The notes beneath the pieces are model-generated. The model had not been told where the DNA came from and ran no database searches. It saw only the letters and a list, made by a program, of their open reading frames with translations. A program made the translations under genes and the position numbers. From the NCBI RefSeq assembly GCF_004010195.1, contig NC_057720.1, positions 81,668,301-81,732,300 on the forward strand: a stretch of 64,000 bases of DNA, written 5' to 3'. The DNA comes from Chiloscyllium plagiosum (Eukaryota). This document shows positions 15,266 through 45,112 of this stretch, in pieces. The first letter of the stretch is position 1. The number at the start of each line of letters is the position of its first letter.

Positions 15266-16582
15266 AGAACAACAGTTTATCCCATGTGTCTTCTTAACCA
15301 CCTTACTGACCCGCATTCATTAATCACCATGGCCACATCTTCCACCTCCACACACATGTGACTTCCAGCTTCAAATTGATGAGAGACATTCCTTCATTGT
15401 CTGAGAAACAGATAGAAACATCAAACATAGGAGCAGCAGTAGACCATTCGGCCCTTCAAGCCTGCTCCACCATTCAATATGATCATGGCTGATCACCCAA
15501 CACAGTTTCCTGTTCCAGCTTTCTCCCCACATTCTTTGGTCCCTTTAATCCTAAGAACTATACCTAATTCCTTCTTGAACACATACCGCATCTAATTCCC
15601 TCATGCTGGTAAATTGATGAGAATTATTGAGTTGTTTTTTGACACAATGATCCATTGGGCCTTTTGGGTCTCTCTGACTCTATGACTGTATTATTATATA
15701 TTATGAATAACTGGGTAGCAAGGACTGACCCCTGTGGTACCCCAACTGTTGACTACCTGCCATTCAGCAAAAGACTCGTTCTTCCTGTCCTGTCTGCCAA
15801 CCAGTTCCCAATCCATGTCAGTACATGACCCCAATCCTCTTGTTTGTTGGGATTACCCTGATTCACTTGGACATATTTCATCCTGTCAGCTCTTTGCTTT
15901 ACTCAGATCCTGTTTAATTTCATCCATGCATCCTCTATTCTCTCAGCTTTCTGCAGGTTTGAACTCCAGATAACCAACATCACCTTCCCTGTTTGGTCTT
16001 CCTTACTCTGGCTGCCTTTTGGCATCCCAGGCTGAGAGTCTAGATTTGGGAGTCCCACCCTTACTCCTTGTGGGAACAGATTCTGAACGATCTCTGTCTC
16101 ATCCTTTGAGGGCTTCCACTGCCCTGACACTGATTTCCCATCATGTCGCTGGTCCAGTCCACTTTTACCAAAGCACCGCACAGTTTAGTAAAATGGTTCA
16201 TTCCCAAATGAAAACTTTTACACTTGACACATTGTTCTCCATTTCCATCCCTCCTCTCAATCTCACTGAGTTCTGATCACTGTCACTGAAATGCTCCCCC
16301 ATTGATAGCCCTTCCAGCTGCCCACATTCATTCCCTAAATGATGGTCCAAAACTGTCCCTTCTCTTTCACCATCACCTTCTCAGGCGCAATTAGGGATGG
16401 GCACTAATTGCTGGCTCTGCCAGTGACACTCACATCCCAAGAAGCAATTTGAACAATGTCTGTTCTTTTGTCAGGTTTGTTAGGTGTTGGATACAAATGT
16501 TCAAACATTTTCCCAGTGAATATTCTGAGAGTTGATATACCTTCAAATGGCAGGGATTAAAATTGTTTCTCTTGTCTTTCAG

Positions 16583-16911
16583 GCCGTGAGAACTCTCAGC
16601 CCAAGCTGACCCTGCTGCCCCCCTCCCCGGAGCAGGTCAATGCCAAGGGCACTGCCACCCTGGTGTGCCTTGCCAATCACTTCTATCCCGATGAGCTGGA
16701 GGTGCAGTGGAAGAAGGATGGTGCAGTCATTTCGGACGGGGTTCAGACCAGCAACTACCTGCGAGCTTCGGACAGCACCTACAGTGTCAGCAGCCTGCTG
16801 ACCCTCTCTGGGTCTGACTGGGAGTCCAACGCTCGCTTCTCCTGTGCCCTCACCCACGTGACCCTCTCCTCTCCCCTCAGCAAGAGCATCAGGAGATCAG
16901 AATGTGTGTAG
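16583..16911 (+). CDS. IGKC: Immunoglobulin light chain constant exon, shark kappa type (type III / NS4-like): RENSQPKLTLLPPSPEQVNAKGTATLVCLANHFYPDELEVQWKKDG...STYSVSSLLTLSGSDWESNARFSCALTH...RSECV*
   Basis: Acceptor tttctcttgtctttcag|GC at 16582/16583 is phase 1, as for J-C joins. C1-set hallmarks are present: ATLVCL, FYP, W, YSVSS.L, FSC.LTH and the penultimate Cys for H-L pairing. Isotype is assigned from remembered similarity to elasmobranch kappa C sequences. Confidence 0.93.
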
Positions 16912-24008: not shown

Positions 24009-24129
24009 CTATTCTTTTGGAAAGTACTTCTTCCACTCTGTGTCCTTCACAGCCTTGTAGACAGCAACAATGAGATCGGGAAATAACCCAAAGCTATAAT
24101 CTTCTGGACTCTTCATTAAACTGTGGAAC
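24009..24129 (-). CDS. RNASEL: RNASEL terminal coding exon (FHSLMKSPEDYSFGLFPDLIVAVYKAVKDTEWKKYFPKE*)
   Basis: Read manually. Acceptor tacttttcag|G, TAG at 24011-24009. Matches the human FPDLVIYVY...EYRKHF segment. Confidence 0.92.
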
Positions 24130-27100
24130 CTGAAAAGTACAATTAATGTCCAAGTCAATGAAGATATTTCTCAGCAATCCCTAAATGCTGAGTTTTAGTA
24201 CTCAGCAGGCCCAGGAGTCAAAATAACTGAGTAGATCATTGCTCTGAATTGCTTATAAATGTCACCTTCACATTTCTGGAGGCTTTGATCAGAAAGGTTG
24301 CTGACTCCTCTCCAATATACAGCTTAAAATCAGCTCCAATTCCCAACCATCCAGCTGAGAGCGGAGCCCTGTACAAACTGGAACCTGGTCAGTGGGAGCA
24401 CTGTCACCTCTGTCTCAGAAGCTTTGTCTATTTAAACCAGAGACTTAGTCAAAGAGTCATTCAGCATGGACAGATCCTTCAGTTCAACTCATCCATGCCA
24501 ACCAGACATCTTAAATTAATCTAGTCCCATTTGCCAGGATTTGGCCTCTATGCCTCTAATCCCTTCCTATTCATATACCCATACAGATGTCTTTTAAATG
24601 CTGTAATTGTACCAGCCTCCACCACTTCCTCTGGCAGCTCATTCCATACACATGCCACCATCTGTGTGAAAAAGTTACTCCTTAGATCCCTTACGAATTC
24701 TTCCTCTCTCATGTTAAACCTGTGCCCTCTAGTTTTGGACTCATACCCTGGGAAAGTTGTTGGCTATTCACCATATCTATGCCCCTCATGATTTTATAAA
24801 CCTCTATAAGGTCACCCCTCAGCCTCCAATGCTCCAGGGAAAATAGCCCCAGTCTATTCAGCCTCTCCCTATAGGTCAAACCCTCCAACTCCAGCAACAT
24901 CCTTACAAATCTTTTTTGTCCCCTTTCAAGTTTAACAACATTATTCTTAAAGCAGGAAGACCAGAACTGAGCCCTATATTCTCAAGGTGTCCTCAACAAT
25001 GGCCACTTTGAGGGACAGCCAGTTCATGACATCCCAACTCCTATACTCAATGCACAGTCCAATAAAGGCAAGTGTATCAATCCCCAACTTCACTCCCCTG
25101 TTTACCCATGGCTTCGCTTTCAAGGAACTATGAACCTGCACTCCAAGAATTCGTTGCTCAGCAATACTCCCCAGGACCCTGCCCTGATTTATCTTACCAA
25201 ATGCAACACCTTGCATTTATCTAAATTAACCTCTGTCTACCACTCCTCATCCATTGGCCCACCTTAATAAGCATTGATCTTACATTATAAACCTGAACGT
25301 GTGGAAGGCATTGGTGAGAGACACCTGCAGTACTGTGTCCAATTGTGGTCTGCTTATTTGAGGAAGGATGTGGTGACACTGGAGGCTGTTCAGAGGATGT
25401 TACCCAGACCGATCCCAGGGATGAAAGGGCTGTCCTACTATGGAGCAGTTAAATAGCTTGGGCTTGTCCTCACTGGAGTTCAAAAGAATGAAGGAGGGGT
25501 CTGATTGAGGGATAGAAAATGGGAAAGGGGATTGAGAAGGTGGATNNNNNNNNNNNNNNNNNNNNNNNNNNNNNNNNNNNNNNNNNNNNNNNNNNNNNNN
25601 NNNNNNNNNNNNNNNNNNNNNNNNNNNNNNNNNNNNNNNNNNNNNNNNNNNNNNNNNNNNNNNNNNNNNNNNNNNNNNNNNNNNNNNNNNNNNNNNNNNN
25701 NNNNNNNNNNNNNNNNNNNNNNNNNNNNNNNNNNNNNNNNNNNNNNNNNNNNNNNNNNNNNNNNNNNNNNNNNNNNNNNNNNNNNNNNNNNNNNNNNNNN
25801 NNNNNNNNAACTGTACTATCTCCCCCAGTGACAAGTGCTGGCATTTGAATTCAAATCACAAAGCAAGCCTCATTAATGGTGATCACAATAATGATTCCTG
25901 ATTGCTGTCCAGCCTCAGCCTTACCCAGCCTGGACTTCATGTGACTCCAGCCCCACAGCAATCTGGTTAACTCTTAGGTGCCTTCTGAGAGGCCACAGCA
26001 AGGCCAGCAGTTCAAGGGCAATTAGTCTTGGGTAACAAATACTGATCTATGCTAGTGACACCCACCTCCCAGAAAACAGAATGCAACAGAGATTGGTGTC
26101 AGCCAAAATTGTCAGATCAGACTCTCAATGAGATGGGGAGATGGTTAAAGATGAATTCCGCTCAGTATGGAACAGGTCTCCACTTGTTCACACATCATCG
26201 CTGACAAAATAAGAGAGAGAAAACAGAAAAAAGGTGAGAACACTCGAATGTGGGAATATCAGTGAGAATTCAGGCAACTGAAGGAAGACATGAAGAACTG
26301 CAAAGGAAGACAAAAAGGAAGCAAGAGTTACAAAAAAGTGATTGAGAAAGAGACCTGCAAGGGGTCACAAGAATAACACAAATGTTTTACACGAAAATTA
26401 GAAAATCAAGGGGGCTCCAGTGCAATGTGAGCCCTTTAAAAACAAACTGGGAATTCTATGAATGAGACTAAGGGAATTGCCGGTATGTACAATAATTAGT
26501 TGTGTCAGTCTTCACAGTCAAGGAACGGGATGATGTAGCTTCCATTCCAGGGAGGTTAGTAATGAATGGAAGGCTGGAATTCACAAAACTTGATACATGC
26601 CAGAAAACAGCATTGGAAAGCAAGCAGCTCTAAAGGCTGACAGATCTCCAGGACCTCAGGGGTTTAAAGGAAGGGGGAGGGGGAAGAAGTTTCAGAAGCT
26701 TTTCCCATCAGCTTCCAAAGCAGCAACCATTCCTTTAATTTGGAAAATGTCTTTCTGTAACATCACGGGTTCAAAAAAGATGAGAGAGGGAACCAAGGAA
26801 ATTATATACTGGTCAATCTAACATCTCTTTTGGGGGTTTCATTGGAATCTATAATTAACAGCCGAGAGAATGAACATGTAGAGAATTGGAAATAGCCCAC
26901 ATAGATTTGTGATGGGTAGGTTCTGACTAACAAACCAAATGCATTGACCAAAATAGTTGATAGCACTTATATTCTTATCAACTTTCAGAAGTACTTGATA
27001 ATTTTCCACAAAACAGTCTGCTGATCAAAGTTAAAACCCATGGGATTGAAGATGAATGTTTGACTTGGTTCGGAGGCTGGTTTAGTGACAGATGACAGAG

Positions 27101-30100
27101 AAAGAAAGTGACGAGTGGTGTTCCACAAGGATTCTGTGGTGAGGCCTTAACTAATTACTGTATGTATTAATGAGAATCATAGTTCCACATTAACATAAAG
27201 ACTGATGGAATAGTAAGCAGTGCAGATGGTCTTTTTGTTTAAAACTCACTCCGAGCACATGGGTTTTGCTGTCTTGGCCAGCATTTATTACACATTCCCA
27301 GTTTCCCTTGAGAATCATGGAATCATTAGACAGTGCGGAAGCAGACCATTCAGCCCAACAAGTTCACACCAACCCACCGAAAAGCATCCCATCTGGACTG
27401 ACCCCCTCCCTGTAATATTGCACTTCCCACCCAGTCTGCACATCCCTCGACACGACACACAATTTAGTTTGGCTAATCCACCTAATCTGCACATCTATGG
27501 ACTGTGTGGAGGAAACCCACACAGACATGGGGAAAATGTGCAAACTCCACACAGACAGTGTTCCCAGGGTGGAATTGAACTCAAGTCCCTGGTGCTGTGA
27601 GGTAGCAGCACGAACCACTGAGCCACAATGCTGCCCTTTGCAAAGTGGTGGTGAGCTGCAGTTCATTTGCTGGAGATAAACCCACAATGCCCTAAGGGAG
27701 GTAAGTCCAGGATTTTGACCCAGATGCTATATGGATTGGAGGGGAACTTGTAGTTAGTGGTGTTCTGTGTATCTGCTGCCCTTGTCCTTCTCGATGGAAA
27801 TGGTCGTGGGTTTGGAAGGTGCTGTCTCAGGAGATTTGGTGGATTTCTGCAGTGCATCTTGTAGATGGTGCACAGAGCTGTTACTGAGCATCAGTGGTGG
27901 AGGGAGTGAATGTTTGTCGATGTGGTGCCAATCAAGCAGGCTGCTTTGTACTGGATGATATCAAGCTTCTTGTCCGTTTTTGGAGCTGCACCCTCCAGGC
28001 ATGTGGGGAGTAACCCATCACAGTCCTATCCAAAACTTGACTGATCTTTTTTTAATTCATTTACAGGATTGGGCATCTCCTGGTATGCCAGCATTTACTG
28101 CCCAGAATCAAGTGGGGTGGCACAATGGCCAGCACTGTTGTCTCACAGCACAGGGACCAAGGTTTAATTCCACCCTTGGGCAACTGACTGTGTGGAGTTT
28201 GCACGTTCTCCCTGTGCCTGCCTGGGTTCCCTCCCGGTGATCTGGTTTCCTCCCACAGTCCACAAATGTGCGGGTTAGGTGGAATGGCCATGGGAAATGC
28301 AAGGTTATAGGGGAGTGGGTCTGGGTGAGATGCTCTTTGGAGAGGCGGTTTGGGCTGAATGGCCTGTTTCCACATTGTAGGGATTCTATGAATTTCTTCA
28401 CTCAGAGGGTTTTGAATCTTTGGGATACTCATCCCCAGAGGATTATCGATACTTAGGCATTTGAATAAATTCAAGATAGAGATCATCCACATGTGGGGAG
28501 GCAATAGCCTCGTGGTAACATCACGAGATTCTTAATCCAGAGAGCCCAGTAATGTTCTGGGGGACCTGGGTTCAAATCCTGGCAAGGCACAGAGTGGAAT
28601 TTAAATTGAAAAGAAAACTCTGGAATTCAGAGTCTAATGATGACCATTGTTGGAGGAGAACCCCATCGGGCCCACTAACGTACTTTAGATTGTTGTCCTT
28701 GCCCAAACTAACCAACATATCACTCCAGACCCACAGCAACGTAGAATCATTGAATCCCCACTGTGTGGAAGAAGGCCATTCAGCCCATCAAGTCCAAGCA
28801 GCATCTCACCCAGAACCACCCCCCTCTCCTATCCCTGTAACCCTACACTCCTCATAGCCAATCCACCTAACCTGCACATCTTTGGACTGAGAGTGGAAAC
28901 AGGAGCACCCAGAGGAAACCCACACAGACACAGGGAGAATATGCAAACTCCACAAAGACGCCTGAGGGTGGAATTGAACCCAGGTCTCTGGCGCTGTAAG
29001 GCAGTGGTGCTAGCCACTGTGCCACCCATTCCTCATCTCTGATCTAAATGTCTAACTGCTTATTCCCAGACTGGGACTCTGCCCTGGAATCCCCATTTCA
29101 AGGCACATCCTTCCAAAATCTCCCCTGTCAGGGCCCTGGATAATTTGAAATGTTTCAGTGAAATCTCCTCCAACCTTCTAAATTCCAGGGATGAGATCTG
29201 CAATCTCCTCCTGGCTTCCTAGAGAATCTGGGAATGAAGGAAGTGAGGTCTGCAGATGCTGGAGATCAGAGCTGAAAATGTGTTGCTGGAGAAGCGCAGC
29301 AGGTCAGGCAGCATCCAGGGAACAGGAGAATCGACGTTTCGGGCATAAGCCCTGAAGAAGGGCTTATGCCCGAAACGTCGATTCTCCTGTTCCCTGGATG
29401 CTGCCTGACCTGCTGCGCTTCTCCAGCAACACATTTCCAATCTGGGAATGAATCCCATTCCTGACCCAGTCCCCTCTCCCTATCATTAGACAATCCCCTC
29501 AACCCATCACATGAACTGTCGCTGGGTTTGATCATCTCAGTAAGAGTTTCAAGACGGGAAGGAGAAAGAAAGACTCTTTCTGCTTTGAATTGATGCTAAA
29601 AACTGAAAAAAAGCAGGAAAATATTGTCACCAAGTATTGATAACATACTCTTTCTTTTCATCAAAGTGCTGGATGAGGTTTCTTATGAATTTCAGGAGGT
29701 CACTAGTGGTGTCCTTATATTCTTTATTCTTGCCTTGTCTCTTGTTCATGTCATTGAGGAGAACAGAGTCAACCTAGAAAGAAATGAACAGCAGAGTTTG
29801 TTTTCTCTATTGATTAAATTCACCTTGCTTACTCCTCTGATCACCTGAAGAAAGGGCGAGGCTCTGAAAGCTAGTGTTTTCTAATAAACCTGTTGCACTA
29901 GAACCTGGTGTCACATGATTTTTGACCTTGTCCTCTGATCACATTCAGGTTGTGCCCACGGGCACTGCATGTTCTTGCTTCTCCAGGCCAGCAAGTGGCG
30001 ATCTTGACAATGGATTTCACAATGGTCTCCGTCAGAAAGGACCCACAAATCAGGGACAGAGACCAGAGATAACAGGCTCCTCAGTCCCAGACCCGAGCAC

Positions 30101-33100
30101 AACGGGCCCCCTGGCATCCCAGGTACCGCTTGTTGCGTCCCGGACCCTGTACATAATGCAAATGGTGCGACTGATCTTTCTGATTTTTCTCCAACCTCAC
30201 CAGGTCTCCACAGTCACTGAGAGTATTTAAATGACAAAGCCTTTAGCTGCCTTTGCCAGTTAGAGACCGTAATTGATGGGAAACAGACTGAAATGGGTCA
30301 ATAAGATTTGGGAGTTACAGACACAGATTACGAAGTGGAAATCTGATGTTATGGCTCTGACAGAGACCGGGTGGGACTGGGTATTCCTGGATACAAGGTG
30401 TTCAGTAAAGATAGGAAAGTGGGAAAATTGAGAGAAGTGGTACGATTGGTGAAGGAAGTCAGTGCAGAGCTGGAGGAAGAGAGTGTCTCAGAGGGGTCAC
30501 GGCTTGGCTTGAGATAAGGAACAAAAATGGTGCAATCAGATTGTTCAGAGCAGACTACAGGTCACCAATCAGTGGGAAGGATGGATAGGAACAAACTTAC
30601 AAGGAACTTACAGAGAAGTGTAAACATGATAGTGTCGTTATAGTGGGGGAAACTTAAATTATCTGAATATAGACTGGGATAGTAGCAATGAAGGACAGAC
30701 AGGGGCAAGTCTGATCTTAGAGTAGGATAAAAGGCCAGCACAACATCGCGAGCCAAAGGGCCTGTACCATGCTGTACTGTTCAATGTTCTATTTTCATTC
30801 CAAGCTTGTATTGAAGGCATGCAGGACAAGAGTTTGTGCTCGGTCTGAATCTTGGTAATGAGTTAGGCCAAGTAGATCAAGTGTCATGGGAAGTATTTGT
30901 AGAACAGTGATCATTGTATTGTAATATTTAGGAAAATGATTTTTTTTTTAAAAAGAACAAAAGCACAGCCCAGAGTGAGAATAATTAACTGAGAGAGAAC
31001 TGATATCAACAAAACAAGAGCAGAGCTGGATTGAATAGACTGGATCCGAAGACTGGCAAGAAAACCAGCAGCTGAGCAATGGGTTACCTTCAAAGTACAG
31101 CTGGGTAGGGGGACAGTTGTAGGTTAGGTGGATTAGCCATGGGAAATCTGGGATTGGCAGGGGGTGTGGAGTTGGGTGAATTGCCTTTTAGAAGGATGAT
31201 ACCTACTCCCTGGGCTGAATGGCCTCTTTCTACACTGGAGGGATTCTACACTTCAATGCCTAACATCAGTCTGCTCACCTGCAGTGAATGATCTAGCATC
31301 TGTTTCACAGAGGGATTTTAGAACTGATAGAACCTAAAGCATGTGGCATTGAACCCACAATAGATGTAAACCAGAAGCCAGCATCAGAAAGCTCAGAGAA
31401 ATGGTATTATTGCAGGTCGGAAGGTGTACCTTCTCTGTCCACTTGTGAAATGATCTTTCCTGATCCTCTCCGGTCTTATTCAGGATCTGGACAATCTGAC
31501 TGTCATGATTCCGTTTGACCACATCCTTCTCATTGGCGAGACTTTGGATCAACTGGGCCTTGCTGGAGGGGAAATGGAAAGGTGATTAATGCAAAGCAAC
31601 CTCGGTCACACAGAACTGCAGCCACTGTAATGTCCTGTGTCACATGCAGAATGTTCATACAATAGGAAACTGATTGATCAGATTCATTTTCGTTCCCAAA
31701 ATACCTTCATGGGTAAGGAAAGTACAGTTTAATAAAAACTAATCCCCGGTAATGGTACAGACACAGAGGAGAGGAAGGTATCAACTGGACACAATAAAAT
31801 GTGTAAGGGATTGATAGCCGAGTTTTTGACTCTGGCTCTGTAAAGCATGGTGGGGTATTTTCTAAGCTTAAATCTCCATTCTCGAAATGTATTTGTGTGT
31901 TCTGTGTATCTGGGTTTTATAGAAACATACATAGCAACATAGAAGATAGGATTAGAAGGAGGCCAGTCGGCCCTTTGAACCTGCTCCATCATTCGTCACG
32001 ATCATGGCTGATCATCCAACCCAATAGCTAATCCTGCTTTCTCCTTAACCTTTGATCCCATTCGCCCCAAGTGCTAAACCCAACCACCTCTTGAATACAT
32101 TCAATGTTTTGGCATCAACTACTTCCTGTGGTAATGTATTCCACAGGCACATCACTCTTTGGTGAAGAAATGTCTCCTCACCTCTGTACTAAATGGACTA
32201 CCCTGAATCCTCTGACTATGAACCCTAGTTCTGGACACACCCACCATCGGGAGCATCCTCCCTGTATCTACATTGTCTAGCTCTGTTAGAATTTTATAGG
32301 TCTCTCTGAGATCCACCCTCGTTTGTCTGAACTCCAGCGAAAGCAATCCTAACCCAGTCAATCTCTCCTCATACGTCAGTCCCCACCATCTCCGGAATCA
32401 GTTTGGTAACCCTTCACTGCACTCCCTTGAGAGCAAGAGCATCTTCCCTCTGAAAAGGAGACCACAACTGCACACAATACTCCAGGTGTGGGCTGTATTT
32501 TGTGTACATATTTATGTTTTGTGTGTATTTGTGGTTCTGTGTATATTTCTGTCTATTTATGTGGATATGTGTGTATGTGTTCTGTGTGTATTCTTGAGTT
32601 CTGTGCAGATTTGTGTAAATCCGTGTGCCCTGTGTTTATCTGTGTGGATGTTTCCTTGGTTGAATCATTATGTCAGGTAACGGATAGCCAGCTCTGTTGC
32701 TGTTTAATCATCGTCCATTGCTCATTTTTGACTCACTTGCCAAGTTTAGTCTCAATAGAAATACATCAGATATTTTCACATTAAATGGCTTAAATCACAT
32801 AGAACACCAGCTCTTTAAAATCCTGAAATGAAGGTCTACCACAGACCCGGCATACAGTCATAGAGATGTACAGCACGGAAACAGACTCTTCGGTCCAACT
32901 CGTCCATGCCGACCAGATATCCTAAATTAATCTAGTCCCATTTGCCAGCAGATGGCCCATATCCCTCTGAACCCTTCCTATTCATATACCCATCCAGACG
33001 ACTTTTAAGTGTTGTGACTGTACCAGCCTCCGCCATTTCCTCTGACAGCTCATTTCATGCATGTGAAAAAGTTGCCCCTTAGGTCCTTTTTAAATCTTTC

Positions 33101-36100: not shown

Positions 36101-39100
36101 GGATTACACCAGGACTGCTTGAAGAGACAAATCCTTCACTCAGAGTCATAGAGCACAGAAACAGACCCCTCAGTCAGACCAGACCATGCCAAACTAAACT
36201 ACTCCCACCTGCCTGTGCTCGGCCCATACCCCTCCATATATTTCTTATCCGTGTCCTTAATCTGTTTTAACTGTACCTGCATACACCACTTCCTCTGGAA
36301 GTTCATTCCACACACGACCCACTCTCTATGTAAAGAGGTTGCACCTCATGACCCTTTTAAATTTTTCTCCTCTCTCCTTAAAAATAAGCTCCCCAGTCTT
36401 GAAAGTTCCCACTTGATTTTATAAACCTCAATAAGTCAATCTCCTGTACTTCTCCACACATAAGGATGTCTATAAACACCAGTCTTTCTTAACATTCTCC
36501 AAAGACTTACTCCAGATCTTTCCACAGTAGTGGATGGTGCTCAATCTCAGTGAGTGTCGCTCTCTGCTCTGCTGGTGCTAACAGGCACTCCACAAAATCT
36601 CTGGCTTCAGCATTCTTCAGGTCACAAAGACTGTCATCGAAAGAGGGGTTATTCTCAAGTTCATCCTCCTTACTCCTGTAGACGTCCTTCCCACCAGATA
36701 TGACAAAGTGTAAGAGGCGTCCTAGTGCCTGTCTCATAAACAGAACAACTTTAATGGAAAAAATACACTGTCGGGCCCTGGCTTCACAAACATACCACGC
36801 AGGTAACATTTTAGAAATTAATCTATTTTGATTGATTTCTAAACAAAGCTTTTCAATGCACTCAGGTACATGTGACAATAAATCAAATCAAAATTCTCTC
36901 AAATTTTTGGTTCGAAATTTTTGGTGAGCATCCAATATTCTCTCGAGTTCAGTATCATTCCTTGTAAATGGAGCCTCCTGGGCCCAATGCCCAGGAGGTT
37001 GCCTTTCCTGCCCTATATCTGGTGATGTAATCAGGGAGGACTGCTGTAATTGTGAGCCGAATCCTGCACTGTGATTCCACACATGCCCTCATGTACTGCT
37101 CCCTGAAAGTGACCCTACCCTGTTCCTTCATGGCAGGACGCTGAGGCTGATTGCGGAGTACAATCCATGACCACTGCTGTTAGGATCTACAAATTCAGTG
37201 ATGGAGCCAGCTATCCTCCGAGATCGATATAAAAACAAAATTTGCGAGAGAAACTCAGCGGGTCTGGTAGCATTTCTGGAGAAAGAAATACAGAGTTTTC
37301 ACTCTTCTTTGAAAGTTACATCCTTCAGAAACTCAGTTCTGAAGAAGAGTCCTACAAGACTCGAGACATTAATTCTCTTTCCCCCTCCACAGATGCTGCC
37401 AGACCTGCTGAGTTTCTCCAGCATTTTTTTGTTTTCATTTCAAATTTTCATCATCTGCAGAATTTTGCTTTACCCTCCCAGGCCACATGACTCTGTTCCA
37501 AAAAGTTAGCTGCCGGAAAACTATGGGAGGAAACCCTCGCAGACATGGGGAGAATATGCAAACTCCACACAGACAGTCACCCGAGGCTGGAATCGAACCT
37601 GGGTGCCTGGCGCTGTGAGGCAGCAGTGCTAACCACTGAGCCACCTGCTACAAATTTCACTGAGATGTGGGGCTGCAGAGGCTTAGTGGTGTTACTAATC
37701 GAGTAACAGACCCAAGTAATGCTTGGAGGAGCATTTGGAGACTCTGGGTCTATATTCAAGAGTTTAGAAAGATGAGGAGGAACCTTTTTGAAACTCATTG
37801 CTACAGAGGGCTGTGGAGGCCAAGTCACTGACTGTATTTAAGACACGTTCTTGATTGGTAAGGGGATCATGGGTTACAGGAAGGATACAGGAAAATGGGA
37901 TTGAGAAAAACATATCAGCCTGTGGAGCAGACGCACTGAGCCAAAATGGCCTAATTCTGCTCCTATATCTTATGTCCTGGGTTCGAATCCCACCACGGAA
38001 TTTGAATTCAATAAAAATCTGGAATTAAGAGTCTATTGATGACCATGAGTCTGTTTCCCATTGTCAGGAAAAACCCATCTGGTTCGCTAATATCCTTTCG
38101 GGAAGGAGAGCTGCCATCCTTACCCAGTCTGGCCTATTTGTGATTCCAGAGCCACAACAATGTGGCAATCCCTCTCAAAAATGGTGGAGCAAGAGATTCC
38201 ATTGTGGCAATCGCTAGAAAGGAGAAAAGGAATGGAAATGGATGGGCCACCAATTCAGGAACCAGAAACAACATGGATTACAGCGGTTCAGGAAGGCAGC
38301 TGAACACCGCCTTTTCAAGGGGTGATGAGGAGTGAGTAATAAACGCAGTGATGCCCATGTGCAACAATTGAATTTTAAAAAAAGTTCAGCTTCTTCCCTC
38401 TGTCTCAACAGCTTTGAAAACTGAACTTAGCATTATCTGGCCAAATCCATTACCAATGCCTGATTTACCCAGTCTCCCTTTGATTCGTCCAGACACTTAA
38501 ATCTCATCCCTCAAGAGAGAAAACAAGTCACCACATGTGGACCTGCACATCTGCTTTGAACAGCTCATCCTCGGTAAACGTTGCCTTTGGCAAATGTTCC
38601 AGTTTCTGCAGGATTTCTGAGGCTTCCCAGGTTCCAGGGCAAATCGGCATAGTTGGGTTCTTATCAAAATGCACACTCTTATCGAAATCTGCCAGGCGAA
38701 AATTTTCTTCAACATCTGGAGAAAATCAAACCATTTTATTGCTCATATCTCACACACAGCAAAAAGGCTCCAAATCAGTTTTAAACATATCCTTCCATAA
38801 ATCCATTCACTTTCAAACATAATTTGGAATTCTTGGTGTTTCAAATTCATCCATTCCACACAGGTCAGAGTTCCAGTGGCCTTACACTGAGTGGTGGTTT
38901 CATGTTGACAGTTTTCAGGGTTTAAGAAGCTGAGTAAACCCATGAGGGAGTAAGGGATAGATGGTGTTGCTGATGTTGAGATGAAGTAGGGTGGGAGCAG
39001 GTTGTTTGAAGTCTGAACTCTAGCCTCTAACGTGACCCAGTTGGGCGCAATGATCTGTACCTGAGCTGTGTGTTGTGCTATTGTAAGAGGTGGTGAACTG

Positions 39101-42100
39101 TTGAGCTATACATAAGTCACTTGGAGCTTGGTCTTTCAGACACAAATGCCATCTTTCACAGGACGCTAAAATGTGGAAGTGTTGTGAACAGTGAAGAGGC
39201 TAGTGTAGAACTTCAAATAGGTCTTAGTCAAGTTGGTCACATGAGCAGACAACGGGCAGATTAAATTTAATAGCGTGAGTTGTGAAGTGATTCCATTAAT
39301 ACAACTAATGTGGAGAGCCAATGTCGGGATTTTCCCTGCTCCGAGCGACATGGACAATGGCAGGAAAGCTTTTTGGAAACCAGCAAAAGGTCCCATTTCC
39401 CGACCAAGTGTTGAATGGTGAGACACTCATTAGTGAGTGGCAAGAGGCCTATTTAATGCACATTCACTTTCTCACTTAGCCTCCTGATATACAGTTTCCC
39501 ATTCTCCATCTGCCCCATGGAACATGGACAGGAGTGATTCTCGGTGTGCTAGAACAAGCAGTACTCTGGTGACTTCAGCTCACCACTTGCTCGTCTAACC
39601 ATCCATCTCATACTACCCCTCCTCCCACATCTCCATCCCACCCACCCACAATCCTGCACATCCACTCCCACACACCCCTTGTTTCCTATTCCCACAACCT
39701 CAATCCCCCTTCTACCTCACTCTCCTACTCCCACCCCTACATCACCCCCCTCCCATCCTCACTCCCACATCGCAATACCCTCCCCCTCCCACTATCGAGC
39801 GGGAGTACTTAATGATTTGTGCGCTGCGAGAATATGTTGTATACATAAAGAAGTGAGTTTAAGAGGATACCACAAGAGACCTTGCTAGGGCTCATGGAGG
39901 GAAACCCTCCGTGAAATATGGTAAAGTTTACACTTTAAAGAACAGAATCCTTACAGTTTAGGGTGTAGCTTTGCTTGCTGAGCCGTAGGTTTGATGTCCA
40001 GACGTCCTGGACATGTGTTTATCCTGGGACATCTATCCTGGGACAGGCTAAGCAAAGAAATGCCAGAGAATTCCTAGAGGCCTGGCACTCCAACCACAAC
40101 GCCATAAACAAACACATAGATCGAGATGCCATCTATCAACCCCTCAGAAAACAAACAGGAAATGACATCACCACAAACCCCAGGAACCCCATATAGGAGA
40201 AAGATATAAATAGAAAGCAGGAGACAACAGTTTCGCTTCACTTAGAGGTCACCACTGATGATGTTACCAAGCCAGGTAATGAAACGTCTGGACATCAAAC
40301 CTACAGCTCAGCGAGCAAATCTACACCCTAAATCTTAACCTGAGCTACAAACCTTCACAAACCTTACAAAAATCCCTACAGTGTAGAAATAGGCCAAAAA
40401 GTCCACACCAATTCTCTGAAGACCATCCCACGCAGATCTTACTCTATCTGTGGAACACTGCATTTCCCATGAATAATCCATACCTAATTTACCCATCCGT
40501 GGATACTATAGACAACTTAGCATGGCCAATTACCTAACCTGCACATATTTGGATATGAGAGGAAACTGAAGCACACAGAGGAACTCACGCAGACACAGGG
40601 AGAATGCGCAAACTCCACACAAGCTTCCTGGCAAAACTTCAGTCCAACATGAAAGAAAGAGAACAATTCTAAAGGAGGTGAAGGAACTGCATGTATGTGT
40701 GCTCCCAGCACGGTTCACAGTCAGGACATCCTTCTGAAGTGTCATCACTCCTGTGAGTCCTGCAAGGAAATGCCTAAGGGATAAACACACGGTTAACTCC
40801 TCTGAGCTTCTCCCGAGAATGCAATGGGACCTTCTACATTCAACTTTGACAGCAAGTCGGGTCTGAGCTTCAGGTCTCATCCGAAAGCCAGCACCTCCAA
40901 GGCATAGCCTTGTTCAGTTCTGCACAAGTGACAACTTTAATGTTGGCTCGTGAGTCCCAGAGTGGGATTGAACCCACAACCTTGTGATACTGAGATGAAC
41001 GTGCCACTAATTGAGCTAATGCTGATCCCCACACACAAGGAGAGAGAAAAACATTTTCAGCCAGTGAGTGGTTAAGGTGTGGAATGCACTGCCTGAGAGT
41101 GTGGTGAAGGCAGCTTCAATTGAAACATTCCGAAGGGAATGAGACTGTTATTTGAAAAGGAACAATGTGCAGGGTGACAGGGAGAAGACAGGAGAATGAC
41201 ACTCAGTCAATTGCTCAGACAGTCGGTCCAGAGAGGATGTGCGGAATGGCATCCGTGCGCACTGTAACAATTCTGTGAGGCTTTGAAAGGCACTAAAAGA
41301 AATATAAGCTGTACATTTGTTTTCCTCAGTCAAGTACTTGTCAGAAATACATAAAGTAAACGCAAGTAAAATCCTGTCAATCACTTCCTTTCGCCTCATA
41401 GCCTTAGCATTTAGATCATTCAGTCTTACAAAGATAGGATGGATAGGCTGGGAGTTTTTTTCCCACTGGAGGGTAGGAGGTTGAGAGATGATCTTATAAA
41501 AGTTTTTAAAATCACGAGGGGTATAGGTAGACTTAATGGTAAGTGTGTCTATTCCCTAGGGTGGGGGACTTCAAAATGAGGGGGCACATGTTTAAGGTGA
41601 GAGGAGAGAGACTTCAAAAAGACACGAGGGGCAAATTGTTTACACAGAGGATGGTTCATGTGTGTGGAATAACTTACTGATGAAGTGGTGGATGTGGGCA
41701 CACTTACAATGTTTAAAAGACATTGGGATAAGTCCATGAACAGGAAAGGTTTGGAGGGATACGGGACTAGTTTAGTTTGGAATCATGTTCATCATGGACT
41801 GGTTGGACTGAAGGGTTTGTTTCAATGCTGTATGACTCGATGACACCTCCTTTATTCTTGCACATCTCCTCTTTCTGCAGTTATTTAAAAGCTGCTCATT
41901 GTTAATCTCTCCTAATTCTGACAAAAGGTATTCGAATTAAAATGTTAACTCTGTTTCACTTTCCACAGATGCTGCTAATTCTCGCTGCTGAATAGTTCCA
42001 GCATTTTCCTCATTATATTAATTCTGGTTAATAAGATAGAGGCGTCCGCCTCTACAAATAGACACAGATTGAAACTGTTGTTGGGCCCTGAGTATTGCAA

Positions 42101-45100
42101 TGCCTCATCACGAGAACCTTCCAACAAGCACCAAGACATCACTTTGCAGATGGGAAGAAGGGCACTACCTGTGAGATCCTTCTTGATTGCTTGGTCCGTC
42201 TGCGCCTTCACATGCTGCCTTCAAAGTGGCTGCATTGGCAAAGAAACTTTTTGTCTATTCATTCATGGGATGAGGGCATCGCTGGCCAATCTGACATTTA
42301 TTGCCCATCCCTAATTGCCCAGAGGGCAGTTAAGAGTTAACCACATTGCAGTCAGTCTGGAGTCACATATTGGCCAGACTGGGTAAGGATGGCAGATTCC
42401 TTCCCTCAAGGACATTAGTGAACCAGATGGATTTTTCCAACAATCGACAATGGACTCATGGTCATCATTAGACTCTTAATTCCAGATTTTACTGAGTTCA
42501 AATTGCAACCTCTGCCGTGGCGGGATTCAAACCCAGGTCCCCAGAACATTATCTGAGTCTCTGGATTAACAGTCTGGACATAATGCCACTAGGCCAGTGC
42601 CTCACACACTGGAACGTGCATTTACAAAGGAAGTCTGGAGAAAGATGTAGTGGTTTGTGTCGAGGTTCGTCCCGAGCAGCTCCGTGACACGTATCTGTGC
42701 CCTACGGTCTGTTCCTTGGGACGCACACCGAGACAGACACTGACTGCACCTGGAGGACCATCAACTCAGTGAAAGATGCTCTTTGGTCTGCTCAAAACGT
42801 ATGGGTCTTCCAGAGCAAGGAGTTGACCCTGACCGAATGTTGCAGACTGGCACATTCCAAGGTCCAGAACTACGTGCTGAGGGATGGACTAAAGCTTGGG
42901 GCAGCTGCCATCAAGGCACAGTCGGGGAAGACCACCAACTAAGGTCTCTCTGCTGAACTTAAATGGGGTCCATTCATTATCAGACCCTCCCAGTGCCTCA
43001 AACGTTTTTAAATGTAATCTTGTACAAGTAACAAATGCCTTGCTGGATAGAGTCAAACATCAATGTTTCTTTTGTTTCTTCATATGCTATTGCAGAGAAA
43101 CAAACTGCTTTAGTGACTATATATGTATATAAAGATATTTTTATTAATAAAACATATTTTTGAAATTGAAAAAAGCTGTTAGGCCTGCTGAGTCTCTTCA
43201 TATCCTGTCTTCGCTTAAGATAGCAATCTGCAATATTTGACCCTGTAAGTTTTGGGTGAGGTAGCGTGTGCTTATAACGTGTATCTAGGTAAATTTATGC
43301 TTATGAAAGTCTTGAAAAGATTGGCTCCATTTCTATCCTCCACACCCAGATCAGAACACAAAGAATCGAACATTTGAGCAGCACAAAGACACCCCAGAAT
43401 ATACCACTCTCCGAAATATATGAAAATGTTTAAGAGATGTTACCTCTGAGGACATTTGTCGGATGCAAATCCCGGTGAGCAAATTTAACCTTGTGCAAAA
43501 TCTGAAGAGCCTGAACCAACTGCTTCATTATTTTAGGGGCGTCGCTTCGCGTTTTGTCCGGCCACTTGCTCACACATTCCTCAAGGTTATACTCGCAGAG
43601 ATCCAGGCACAGGTAATCACAAAAATCATCACTTTCACAATACCGGAGGCTTGCGAAGCGACTGCTGCCACTGATTTTGGGATCACGGAGGCAATCCAAT
43701 TCTCTTTTGGCTGCTTCGACACCTTTCCTGTGACATTTCACCGCCACTTCGATCTCATTGTTAAAGAACCCGAGGCAGACCTCCGTCGCGCTGCCTTCTT
43801 CTGTAATTTTATAATCCGGGATTCTGGATAGTTTCAGCTTCCCAACGGGGTCACGGGGCTCCACCTGCAGTTTCCGCAGGCTCTCTTTCCAGCGTACGCT
43901 GTGCTCCTTCCATCTTGAAGGAGGTCTTCCTTCATTGGATGCCACCTTCTCTGCCCCATGCTTAATCAGCATGTTTTTTGTTCTATTGTCATACTTCCTT
44001 ATGGCTATCATTAACGCCGTATCCCCGCGGTTGTTCGCAAGGGATACATCAGCCCCCTTCTTACACAGCATCTCTGTCAACGAGGTATCCTTATTTTCCA
44101 CAGCTGCCAGCAGGGCCGTCTGGCCTGAACGGTCTTGTGCATTGATTTCCGTGCTGTCATCCTCCAGCAGAAGTTTAACCACCCTGGGCATCTTCTTCTC
44201 GACTGCAAGGATCAGCGGCGTTTTCCCATCGGCGTCCCGAACATTGAGATTCTGGGTGCACTTCACCAGTTGTTCCAACAGGGGGCTTCGAAGCGTACAC
44301 TTGGTCAAGGCGACACTCAGAGGCGTGTTTTGATTTCGGTCCATGGCATTAACATCTGCTCCCCGTTTCAGCAGAGCCTCCGCAATCTCCTCGTTGCTTC
44401 CCTCCAAGGCGTGGATCAGTGGCGTTTTGCGGATGTTGTCGAACGCATTAACATCGGCGTTCATTTCATCCAACAAGATCTCGACAATGTCCTTCCGGCC
44501 TTCCATCACGGCATCAATCAGGGCTGTCTTGCCGCCTTTACCGATATTCGCCCGGGCGCCGGACACTTGCCTGCCCTTGTTCACGTTAGCGTGCTCCCGG
44601 AAGAGGAGGCGGAGCGCCTCCTCATGGCCGTACTGCGCCGCCTCCATGAAGGCGGTAAAACCGTTGTCGTCTGCCTCGTCGATGCCCGCGCCCAAGGCGA
44701 GAAACTTCCTCAGCAGGTTCACGTTGCCCGTTATCGCAGCGACGATGAAAGGCGAGGCGCCATTCTTCTTCCGAAGGCCGGGCTCGGCCCCGTGTTCCAG
44801 CAGCAGGTCAACCATGTCTTCTTGTTCCGCCTGCACAGCGTTTAGGAGCGGCGACCATTGGTACTGCGGCTCCCGGTAGTTCACGTCCACTCTGTTACTC
44901 ACAAGCAACTTCTTCATGATGTCGACGTGACCTTTCATCGCAACTTGACATAAAATGGAGCCAATCTCGTCAACACCGAGGTTTTCCAAGGCTCCCTCTT
45001 CAATTAACTTTTCCGCCCGAGAGAGATCTGGATGGTTAGACTCGCAGACACCTCGAAGCTTATCACCAAGTTCGGTCCCCTCGACCACTTGTTCCTCTCC

Positions 45101-45112
45101 TTGTCCTGCCAT
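24009..45112 (-). CDS. RNASEL: Ribonuclease L (2-5A-dependent RNase; ankyrin repeats + pseudokinase + KEN RNase). Six coding exons: 45112-43444, 38715-38543, 36728-36511, 31562-31430, 29773-29649, 24129-24009; 2439 nt = 812 aa + stop
   Basis: Exons were joined manually. All have AG/GT ends and matching phases (1,0,2,0,2), giving an uninterrupted frame. Diagnostic RNase L motifs: WSPLLNAVQ, RKKNGASPFIVAA, GFTAFMEAAQYG, GKTPLILAVEKK, EVAVK, LADFDKS, HPLLW, SFHKWTEK, DLLKFIRNLIQH, FPDLIVAVY. Confidence 0.95.
24450..27220. mobile_element. Cluster of CR1 fragments in RNASEL intron 5 (24450-25260 -, 25260-25545 +, 26250-27220 + highly degenerate)
   Basis: RLGLFSLE..RLRGDLIEVYK and LQYCVQLWS motifs. 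Confidence 0.8.
29239..29438. mobile_element. Short palindromic non-autonomous element (Penelope-derived/MITE-like) with 14-bp target duplication
   Basis: Inverted arms surround CTGAAGA-a-GGGC-ttat-GCCC-GAAAC-GTC. Flanked by AATCTGGGAATGAA at 29225-29238 and 29439-29452. Confidence 0.8.
29649..29773 (-). CDS. RNASEL: RNASEL coding exon 5 (VDSVLLNDMNK...YKDTTSDLLKFIRNLIQHFDEKK), catalytic KEN core
   Basis: Not in the ORF track; read manually. Acceptor tttctttctag|GTT and donor GA|gtatgt. Contains DLLKFIRN..H with the catalytic His. Confidence 0.93.
31430..31562 (-). CDS. RNASEL: RNASEL coding exon 4 (KAQLIQSLANEKDV...SFHKWTEK), start of the KEN domain
   Basis: Acceptor tttcccctccag|C and donor AAG|gtacac. 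Matches the human VGNESDI...SFDKWTTK segment. Confidence 0.92.
32855..33540 (-). mobile_element. CR1 LINE 3' fragment
   Basis: LYRTLVRPLLEYCVQF motif and typical 3' tail. Another fragment lies at 31920-32490(-). Confidence 0.88.
33845..34625 (+). mobile_element. CR1 LINE 3' fragment
   Basis: QMEFNSDKCEVL.FG motif and CTCTATGACTCTATG tail. Confidence 0.88.
34640..35260. mobile_element. Penelope-like element, 5'-truncated with inverted pseudo-LTR (large fold-back)
   Basis: 34650-34960 is the reverse complement of roughly 34960-35220. It contains the GIY-YIG C-terminal remnant (WHSN....NKHI.LD.I) and hammerhead cores at ~35146-35187 (+) and ~34678-34718 (-). Confidence 0.8.
35280..35515 (+). 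mobile_element. DeuSINE (AmnSINE/SacSINE-like) central domain
   Basis: Deu-domain signature CCTGGCCA.TATT..TCCCTCAA.CAACATCA...GATTATC.GGTCATT...GTTTGTGGGATCTTGCTGTG. Other remnants at ~12950-13130, 13880-14020, 40860-41030(-) and 52645-52800(-). Confidence 0.7.
36511..36728 (-). CDS. RNASEL: RNASEL coding exon 3 (ALGRLLHFVISGG...EARDFVECLL...HPLLWKDL)
   Basis: Lies within ORF 36507-36878. Acceptor gacag|GCA and donor GA|gtaagt. Encodes the kinase C-lobe. Confidence 0.93.
37230..37470. mobile_element. Related fold-back short element (CACAGATGCTGCCAGACCTGCTGAG family)
   Basis: Inverted arms surround TTCTGAAGAAGAGTC...GACTCGA. Relatives at ~4290-4470, 41915-42020 and 45670-45880. Confidence 0.6.
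38543..38715 (-). CDS. RNASEL: RNASEL coding exon 2 (DVEENFRLADFDKSVHF...PGTWEASE...FKADVQ)
   Basis: Acceptor ttttctccag|AT completes the Asp codon. Contains the DFD motif. The phase-0 donor CAG|gtccac is weak but is the only one compatible with the next exon. Confidence 0.88.
39955..40370 (+). mobile_element. Penelope-like element 3' end with short inverted 5' arm
   Basis: ORF 39975-40196 (ILGQAKQRNAREFLEAWHSNHNAINKHID) is the C-terminus of a PLE GIY-YIG endonuclease. 39958-40000 is inverted relative to 40285-40330. Confidence 0.85.
40252..40291 (+). ncRNA. Minimal type I hammerhead ribozyme motif in a Penelope terminal repeat
   Basis: cca-CTGATGA-t-GTTACC-aagcca-GGTAAT-GAAAC-GTC-tgg, directly downstream of a GIY-YIG coding remnant. 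Confidence 0.7.
42610..43175 (+). mobile_element. Tx1/L1-like LINE 3' end
   Basis: YGLF.GTH.ET...C.WRTINSVKDALWSA.N motif, then AATAAA and an A tail. Same family at 63666-64000(-); tail only at ~18000-18115(+). Confidence 0.8.
43444..45112 (-). CDS. RNASEL: RNASEL coding exon 1 (ankyrin-repeat domain and N-lobe of the pseudokinase)
   Basis: Lies within ORF 43430-45202. ATG at 45112 has good Kozak context (gagaATGG) and is preceded by a polypyrimidine tract plus AG acceptor at 45139-45138. Donor is AGAG|gtaaca at 43444/43443 (phase 1). Confidence 0.95.

What the first reader, a model, noticed from the sequence alone, without database searches (positions are those of the whole stretch)
38543..43760. 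Shark RNase L keeps a much more kinase-like 'pseudokinase' domain (HRD, long activation segment, subdomain VIII/IX remnants)
Seen in sequence: VAVK lysine, alphaC Glu (AKRELDCL), catalytic loop HRDLHPTN, DFD, then a 173-nt exon containing PICPGTWEASE and ending KADVQ|ALG. Established: human RNase L has HQDLQPQN and only a very short segment after DFDKS; its paralogue IRE1 is an active kinase with HRDLKPHN, DFG, GTEGWIAPE and a DIFS-type subdomain IX. Inference: this protein looks like an intermediate between IRE1 and mammalian RNase L, and might retain an RD pocket, activation-loop phosphoregulation or residual kinase activity. Against this, the Gly-rich loop is degenerate (YKITEEGSATEVCLG), DFG is DFD and the catalytic-loop Lys is His.
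Basis: partly seen in the sequence, partly recalled or inferred. Interest (0 to 1): 0.78.

Follow-up and report, generated by a model that had tools for sequence, protein, structure and literature searches.

The report
Shark RNase L keeps kinase segment
The antiviral enzyme RNase L of sharks, rays and chimaeras still carries a 29-residue piece of kinase structure that land vertebrates lack, but it likely serves as a structural brace in an already inactive kinase rather than as a working enzyme or switch.

Summary
Observation confirmed. The window holds an intact RNASEL gene (812 aa, identical to a RefSeq bamboo-shark model). Both borders of the 173-nt exon are supported by transcript contigs. 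The segment is ancestral, not an insertion: all 17 cartilaginous-fish sequences keep W-E-x-S-E and its predicted partner Arg, while 104 of 105 lobe-finned/tetrapod sequences lack the segment. The functional inference is weaker. The catalytic-loop Lys, the P+1 Gly-Thr register, the RD-pocket basic residue and the Gly-loop glycine are lost. No loop phosphosite is invariant. The ghost shark keeps the segment but has lost the catalytic Asp and Asn, and its RNase L still works with OAS in yeast (PMC10400998). Best reading (0.7): an ATP-binding pseudokinase with a retained structural segment; residual kinase activity about 0.13. The nearest kinase-intact relatives are not IRE1 but a fish/lungfish/coral kinase-RNase family. 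The scan reached the same reading before on another genome (e1-9050887). New variant of a known kind; interest 0.42.

The parts
43444..45112 (-). RNASEL coding exon 1 (ATG at 45112): ankyrin repeats, linker, kinase N-lobe through the catalytic loop
44255..44344 (-). approximately one extra ankyrin repeat, present in chondrichthyans and absent from lobe-finned fish and tetrapods (borders approximate)
   Evidence: gap in the alignment to 4OAU/4O1O; 4 of 4 chondrichthyans against 0 of 8 others
43769..43813 (-). degenerate Gly-rich loop region
   Evidence: no conserved Gly in 17 chondrichthyans; one Gly invariant in 105 of 105 sarcopterygians
43736..43747 (-). VAVK, beta3 Lys459
   Evidence: K in 17 of 17 and 105 of 105
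43700..43702 (-). alphaC Glu471
   Evidence: E in 17 of 17 and 105 of 105
43454..43477 (-). catalytic loop HRDLHPTN (R547, D548, H550 in place of Lys, N553)
38543..38715 (-). coding exon 2, 173 nt: DFD, activation segment, W-E-A-S-E (APE equivalent), alphaEF and start of alphaF; single copy in the genome search
38681..38689 (-). DFD (DFG equivalent)
   Evidence: DFD in 16 of 17; DFG in the electric ray P0010
38609..38635 (-). GTWEASEIL, retained subdomain VIII remnant with Glu590
36511..36728 (-). coding exon 3: rest of alphaF to the end of the kinase C-lobe
36561..36563 (-). Arg670, subdomain XI Arg, inferred salt-bridge partner of Glu590
   Evidence: 17 of 17 chondrichthyans, 54 of 54 parsed kinase-RNase outgroups, 12 of 103 amniote RNase L
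31430..31562 (-). coding exon 4, RNase (KEN) domain
29649..29773 (-). coding exon 5, RNase domain with the invariant His767 (29668-29666)
24009..24129 (-). coding exon 6 and stop codon

Best explanation
This is the shark RNase L gene, and its kinase-like domain is likely an inactive, ATP-binding scaffold that has kept its ancestral activation segment as a structural brace. Shown: the gene is intact and spliced as read. The segment, its Glu590 and the subdomain XI Arg670 occur together in cartilaginous fishes and in kinase-RNase outgroups, and are missing together from lobe-finned fishes and nearly all tetrapods. Inferred mechanism: as in mammals, 2-5A bound to the ankyrin repeats drives dimerisation, ATP-Mg bound by Lys459, Glu471, Asn553 and DFD stiffens the domain, and the RNase domains pair and cut RNA. 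Trp586, the Glu590-Arg670 pair and probably Arg547 would pin the segment to the C-lobe in a fixed conformation. Inferred history: a kinase-RNase ancestor of the fish/coral type first lost the catalytic-loop Lys and the DFG Gly (changes shared by sharks and mammals). Cartilaginous fishes then lost the Gly-loop glycine but kept the segment, whereas lobe-finned vertebrates deleted it in steps (DFD-to-subdomain-IX spacing 46-47, then 30 in coelacanth, then mostly 17 in amniotes).
For: Homology: Pfam Pkinase matches in one piece to profile position 262-263 of 263 in 6 of 6 chondrichthyan proteins, while the best stretch ends at 150-156 in 8 of 8 sarcopterygian ones. Similarity to the two IRE1 paralogues of the same genome exceeds shuffles (local p 0.002 and 0.004). 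W-E-A-[T/A]-E occurs in 12 of 33 outgroup proteins of the DxQ type. AlphaFold2 of the near-identical P0001 gives block pLDDT 88-96 over the segment, with an alphaEF-like helix, and its kinase-RNase part superposes on human IRE1 6W3K over 372 of 398 residues (Z 35.3, rmsd 2.8). Inactivity: catalytic-loop Lys is His in 17 of 17 (Lys in 13 of 13 of the nearest kinase clade); DFG+5 is V/M in 17 of 17; the canonical Thr position (Trp-3) is never S/T in 17 (S/T in 13 of 13 outgroups); the DFD-to-Trp distance is 20-21 against 24. C. milii has HRN and His for Asn in 4 of 4 records covering the site, yet keeps W-E-A-S-E, Arg547 and Arg670; its RNase L works with OASa in yeast (PMC10400998). Dead mammalian RNase L keeps the same Lys, Glu, Asp, Asn and DFD, so these residues do not mark activity (PMC4718504).
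Against: All 16 elasmobranch sequences keep Lys, Glu, the HRD Asp, Asn and the DFx Asp. A review attributes mammalian inactivity to the altered activation loop and substrate site (PMC4718504), which is exactly what sharks partly keep. WNG1 is an active kinase without a Gly-loop and with an acidic residue at the DFG Gly (PMC6442604). The electric ray has DFG. Thr585 is present in 16 of 17 and Ser589 in 17 of 17, and the catalytic loop (0.94) and GTWEASEIL (0.95) are more conserved than the RNase domain (0.73). The case from C. milii rests on one species, and I could not read the supplement giving the sequence that was assayed. Side-chain contacts were not visible to me: the salt bridge is inferred from co-occurrence and from recalled kinase anatomy.
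Confidence: 0.7

Rival explanations
1. Elasmobranch RNase L is a weak or narrow-specificity active kinase, and the ghost shark and the lobe-finned lineage lost activity independently.
For: Full set of catalytic residues in 16 of 16 elasmobranch sequences plus the APE-like Glu and the subdomain XI Arg; near-invariant Thr585; DFG in one ray; WNG1 precedent; the review's explanation of mammalian inactivity.
Against: Loss of the catalytic-loop Lys, of the in-register P+1 Gly-Thr and of the Gly-loop glycine; the segment is equally intact in C. milii without Asp and Asn; the same catalytic residues persist in dead mammalian RNase L.
Confidence: 0.13
2. The domain is catalytically dead, but the segment is a regulatory element: a docking site, or a target of another kinase, that tunes dimerisation and RNase activity.
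For: Surface-type residues Glu587 and Ser589 are invariant and Thr585 is kept in 16 of 17; Ser/Thr stands at Trp-4 in 11 of 17; pseudokinase activation loops act as switches in MLKL and RKS1 (PMC8141879).
Against: The RD-pocket basic residue is absent in 17 of 17, no loop column is invariant, 3 of 17 have no Ser/Thr in the loop core, and this window's protein has Cys at Trp-4. The model predicts an ordered segment.
Confidence: 0.14
3. The segment is a cartilaginous-fish-specific insertion that only looks like subdomain VIII.
For: The 57-aa exon alone finds no PDB sequence at E up to 10; global-alignment significance against IRE1 is modest (p about 0.02); the Gly-Thr is out of register.
Against: Spacing matches the outgroups (45 in IRE1, median 45 in DxQ proteins, 46-47 here); W-E-A-x-E is shared with the sister family; Arg670 comes and goes with the segment; coelacanth keeps an intermediate length.
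Confidence: 0.03

Closest known systems
Mammalian RNase L (human 4OAU/4OAV, pig 4O1O/4O1P)
   Same: Ankyrin-pseudokinase-RNase order, top sequence and fold match, VAVK, alphaC Glu, catalytic Asp and Asn, DFD, RNase His, one clade at 100/100.
   Different: Shark has 29 more residues between DFD and subdomain IX, an APE-like Glu, the subdomain XI Arg, HRD for HQD, one more ankyrin repeat and no Gly-loop glycine.
Callorhinchus milii RNase L (assayed in PMC10400998)
   Same: Same long segment, W-E-A-S-E, Arg547 and Arg670 equivalents, extra ankyrin repeat.
   Different: HRN for HRD, His for the Mg-binding Asn, and a further shortened Gly-loop; no kinase assay appears in the parts read.
Kinase-RNase (KEN) proteins of ray-finned fishes, lungfish and a coral, annotated 'uncharacterized' or 'IRE1-like' (P0145, P0147, P0152-P0154, P0137)
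   Same: Group with RNase L apart from IRE1 (98/94); share the pre-kinase W...RW linker, T-E-V-x-L-G, W-E-A-x-E and DxQ at subdomain IX.
   Different: Keep HRDxK, DFG, DFG+5 Arg and in-register Gly-Thr (13 of 13), so they look like active kinases; N-termini are ankyrin, CARD or PYRIN; several lack parts of the RNase His motif.
IRE1 (two paralogues in the same genome; human 6W3K, yeast 2RIO)
   Same: Kinase-RNase module, HRD, similar segment length (45), fold Z 33-35.
   Different: Active kinase with HRDLK, DFG, GTEGWIAPE and a Ser-rich loop; no ankyrin repeats; different intron positions around the segment; a clade of RNase L plus IRE1 is weakly rejected (p-AU 0.036).

Membership tests
RNase L | Ankyrin repeats + kinase-like domain + Ribonuc_2-5A domain in one protein | tested here: met
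   Pfam on P0132, identical to the spliced window protein
RNase L | Falls in the RNase L clade | tested here: met
   100/100 in a 33-row tree and SH-aLRT 100 in an 80-row tree, activation segment removed
RNase L | RNase catalytic His and neighbours; 2-5A contact residues | tested here: met
   His767 and Arg762 invariant in 17+105; Trp86, Glu157, Arg181 invariant, Phe152 in 16 of 17. Their role as 2-5A contacts is recalled, not from a call.
RNase L | 2-5A-dependent RNA cleavage | not testable with these tools
   Indirect only: OAS1_C matches in the same genome; C. milii orthologue functional in yeast (PMC10400998)
Active eukaryotic protein kinase | beta3 Lys, alphaC Glu, HRD Asp, catalytic-loop Asn, DFG Asp | tested here: met
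   All present in the window protein and 16 of 16 elasmobranch sequences; Asp and Asn absent in C. milii
Active eukaryotic protein kinase | Catalytic-loop Lys of Ser/Thr kinases (HRDxK) | tested here: not met
   His in 17 of 17
Active eukaryotic protein kinase | Gly-rich loop GxGxxG | tested here: not met
   No conserved Gly; Gly before T-E-V in 1 of 17
Active eukaryotic protein kinase | DFG glycine | tested here: not met
   DFD in 16 of 17, including the window protein
Active eukaryotic protein kinase | P+1 loop G-[T/S]-x-x-W in register | tested here: not met
   Trp-3 is P/K/Q/E/L in 17 of 17 and Trp-4 is Gly in 1 of 17; outgroup G-[T/S] in 13 of 13
Active eukaryotic protein kinase | APE Glu with subdomain XI Arg | tested here: met
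   Glu590 and Arg670 in 17 of 17 by sequence; the Pro is Ser; the contact itself was not inspected
Active eukaryotic protein kinase | Phosphotransfer | not testable with these tools
   needs an assay
RD kinase regulated by loop phosphorylation | HRD Arg | tested here: met
   17 of 17
RD kinase regulated by loop phosphorylation | Basic residue at DFG+5 completing the pocket (position recalled from PKA anatomy) | tested here: not met
   V 16, M 1 of 17; R in 13 of 13 fish-type and K/R in 34 of 47 IRE1-like proteins
RD kinase regulated by loop phosphorylation | Conserved loop phosphoacceptor | tested here: inconclusive
   0 of 13 loop columns invariant and 3 of 17 without Ser/Thr in the loop core, but Thr585 in 16 of 17 and Ser/Thr at Trp-4 in 11 of 17
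IRE1 orthologue | Groups with IRE1; luminal domain instead of ankyrin repeats | tested here: not met
   Separate clade; two true IRE1 genes lie elsewhere in the genome

The most novel reading that the evidence does not exclude
RNase L of sharks and rays is still a real kinase, the last catalytically live member of the family, and its activity or loop phosphorylation couples 2-5A sensing to RNase output as autophosphorylation does in IRE1; ghost sharks and lobe-finned vertebrates would have killed it separately.
Probability: 0.13. Interest if true: 0.85.

Novelty: new variant of a known kind. Interest (0 to 1): 0.42.

Why it matters
Mammalian RNase L keeps every catalytic residue yet is dead, and the usual explanation is its missing activation segment and substrate site (PMC4718504). 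The shark protein is a natural version with that segment back, so the explanation becomes directly testable. The series fish-type kinase-RNase, shark, ghost shark, coelacanth, amniote lays out how an active kinase turned into a pseudokinase in steps and by different routes. It also points at an unstudied kinase-RNase family with ankyrin, CARD or PYRIN heads in ray-finned fishes, which are reported to lack RNase L (PMC10400998).

Tried and rejected
PDB sequence search with the 57-aa exon alone: no match at E up to 10; too short to be informative. My first shuffle test used a wrong donor for one IRE1 paralogue; it was corrected and only one search is used. A second holocephalan sequence was sought and not found: 1 of 13 hits was C. 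milii itself and the rest were elasmobranchs. Run search: no RNA holder listed on record. Reads were laid only on the exon-2 neighbourhood, so junctions are read from loose ends rather than from joints across whole introns. The primary RNase L structure and kinase papers (PMC3974923, PMC4731867, PMC148198) are not held, and the supplement of PMC10400998 could not be read; either may show alignments of fish RNase L or place the sister family. Nine literature searches listed no paper whose title, abstract or passages read describe the shark segment; subscription journals are mostly not covered. The 80-row tree finished only as a quick tree: 17 of 122 rows failed the parser and 25 more were thinned out; the 33-row careful tree used LG+G4 without mixture. 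Rejected: an earlier splice donor; HRD as a shark-only or activity-marking feature; IRE1 as the nearest comparison; a second full RNASEL copy (exon 2 has one match). No complex prediction was run, since no binding claim is made.
Full report
1. Observation. The large first coding exon ends in phase 1 after HRDLHPTNVLR. Exon 38715-38543 is 173 nt with AG and GT borders, and the exon at 36728 begins ALG. With three RNase-domain exons (31562-31430, 29773-29649, 24129-24009) the frame is open for 812 residues and is 812 of 812 identical to RefSeq models annotated from Chiloscyllium plagiosum. Public data support the splicing. In runs X15, X16 and X2 a contig covers exactly this exon, and its loose ends match the end of exon 1 and the start of exon 3. 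Three raw RNA reads of X20 show the upstream junction. No other donor was seen. Two of these runs also hold intron-containing contigs, and the library type of the three contig runs is not on record or is guessed.

2. What it is. The gene is RNASEL: ankyrin repeats, Pkinase and Ribonuc_2-5A, best PDB matches human and pig RNase L by sequence and fold, and one clade with tetrapod RNase L at 100/100. Two true IRE1 genes lie elsewhere in the genome, as do OAS-type exons. Residue numbers below are those of the 812-aa protein.

3. The segment is conserved in cartilaginous fishes. I compared 17 chondrichthyan sequences (16 elasmobranch, 1 holocephalan) with 105 sarcopterygian ones (104 from the best 120 listed of 752 hits, mostly mammals, plus one coelacanth). 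From the DFD Asp to the subdomain IX Asp there are 46-47 residues in all chondrichthyans, 30 in the coelacanth RefSeq model and 16-19 in the 80 amniote or unnamed sequences that the pattern parsed. Trp586, Glu587, Ser589, Glu590, Leu592 and Arg547 are invariant in 17 of 17; the columns are gaps in 104 of 105 others.

4. It is ancestral. Pfam's kinase profile threads through without a break in 6 of 6 chondrichthyan proteins, while its best stretch stops near position 150 in 8 of 8 others. The two shark IRE1 paralogues have spacing 45 and score above shuffles (local p 0.002 and 0.004, global p about 0.02; best control window 23 against 30-32). The subdomain XI Arg, which pairs with the APE Glu in kinases (recalled), is present in 17 of 17 chondrichthyans, 19 of 19 and 35 of 35 parsed outgroup kinase-RNases, 0 of 4 non-amniote sarcopterygians and 12 of 103 amniote sequences. 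An AlphaFold2 model of P0001 (776 of 812 identical) has the segment ordered, with block pLDDT 88-96, a helix at the alphaEF position and a lengthened alphaF. Its kinase-RNase part aligns with 372 of 398 residues of human IRE1 at rmsd 2.8. I had no coordinates, so contacts are inferred.

5. The better outgroup is not IRE1. A search of 1.84 billion representatives with the C. milii kinase-RNase part returned kinase-RNase proteins of ray-finned fishes, lungfish and a coral (6 named; most others are unnamed). With the segment cut out of the alignment, they group with RNase L apart from IRE1 (98/94; a clade of RNase L plus IRE1 has p-AU 0.036; SH-aLRT 93 in the larger quick tree). Which subgroup is the sister is unresolved. 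They carry W-E-A-[T/A]-E in 12 of 33, DxQ at subdomain IX and the pre-kinase W...RW linker, and the 13 fish-type members all keep HRDxK, DFG, Arg at DFG+5 and G-[T/S]-x-x-W. PMC10400998 (main text parts 1-3 of 6 and keyword passages read) says RNase L arose from a kinase-RNase protein and mentions other ankyrin-bearing relatives, but the parts read do not discuss kinase motifs.

6. Against that baseline the shark domain is already much changed. The catalytic-loop Lys is His in 17 of 17, as in coelacanth, caecilian, turtles and platypus. DFG is DFD in 16 of 17. The DFG+5 basic residue of the RD pocket is V or M. The stretch from DFD to Trp is 3-4 residues shorter. No loop column is invariant, and 3 of 17 sequences have no Ser/Thr in the loop core. 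The Gly-loop has no conserved Gly, whereas 105 of 105 sarcopterygians keep one. HRD also occurs without the segment in a caecilian, a coelacanth paralogue and a musk deer, so it does not mark activity. Most telling, C. milii has HRN and His for the Mg-binding Asn in 4 of 4 records that cover the site, yet keeps the whole segment and both arginines, and its RNase L degrades mRNA with OASa in yeast (PMC10400998). This is one species, and I could not check the assayed sequence.

7. Mechanism. Most likely (0.7) the domain works as in mammals, where RNase L binds ATP with two cations, is inactive as a kinase, and scaffolds the dimer (PMC4718504, passages read; both Asp of DFD bind Mg according to PMC6442604, passages read). 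The conserved catalytic residues would serve ATP-Mg binding, and the retained segment would brace the C-lobe through Trp586, Glu590-Arg670 and probably Arg547. Rivals: residual kinase activity in elasmobranchs (0.13), helped by the review's view that the lost loop explains mammalian inactivity and by WNG1, which is active without a Gly-loop and with an acidic DFG substitute; a regulatory, non-catalytic loop (0.14), helped by Thr585 (16 of 17), Ser589 (17 of 17) and the MLKL/RKS1 precedents (PMC8141879, passages read); a chance insertion (0.03).

8. Known and new. RNase L in cartilaginous fishes is known and assayed. Nine searches of the held library listed no paper on this segment. PMC6307210 and PMC4536996 (passages read) do not treat it; the other papers listed were seen only as search listings. 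The three primary papers were not held. Verdict: observation confirmed, interpretation partly supported, new variant of a known kind, interest 0.42; 0.85 if kinase activity were shown.

Noticed in passing
window 16561-16908 (+) and 24009-29773 (-); G000:C11:91.56-91.71 Mb, C11:81.53 Mb, C101447, C100358 and other small contigs: The RNASEL 3' end appears to have been copied along with neighbouring immunoglobulin light-chain-type C exons. RNase exon 5 matches 39 further places at 87-94% identity (40 of 42 candidates scored), some with stops. In 3 of 5 regions fetched an Ig C exon 97-98% like the window's lies nearby, 2 of 5 also hold exon 6, and none holds exons 1-4.
   Followed up: partly
proteins P0145, P0147, P0152, P0153, P0154, P0137 and relatives: A kinase-RNase family of ray-finned fishes, lungfish and a coral with intact kinase motifs and ankyrin, CARD or PYRIN N-termini groups with RNase L apart from IRE1; mostly annotated 'uncharacterized' or 'IRE1-like'. 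The best hit of P0147 in the shark genome is RNASEL itself (stricter first look). Possibly innate-immune; two literature searches gave nothing.
   Followed up: partly
window about 44344-44255 (-): Chondrichthyan RNase L has about one more ankyrin repeat than lobe-finned and tetrapod RNase L, within the 2-5A sensor; it may change dimer geometry or 2-5A length preference.
   Followed up: partly
P0016/P0122/P0123/P0125 (C. milii): Ghost-shark RNase L has lost both the catalytic Asp and the Mg-binding Asn and has a shortened Gly-loop, so it may bind nucleotide differently from mammalian RNase L.
   Followed up: partly
P0282 (coelacanth, 909 aa): A second coelacanth RNase L has HRD and, in place of the segment, a long tandem repeat of the DFD-containing stretch.
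   Followed up: no
P0283/P0141 (axolotl): RNase L-like proteins are annotated in axolotl and fall in the RNase L clade, although PMC10400998 reports loss of the pathway in Caudata.
   Followed up: no
P0010 (Narcine) and P0140 (unnamed): DFG occurs in an electric-ray RNase L and in one short-segment RNase L-like protein, probably as reversions from DFD.
   Followed up: no
G000:C25:15.31-15.38 Mb and G000:C2:53.50 Mb: A cluster of OAS1_C-coding exons and a second OAS-like locus lie in the same genome.
   Followed up: no
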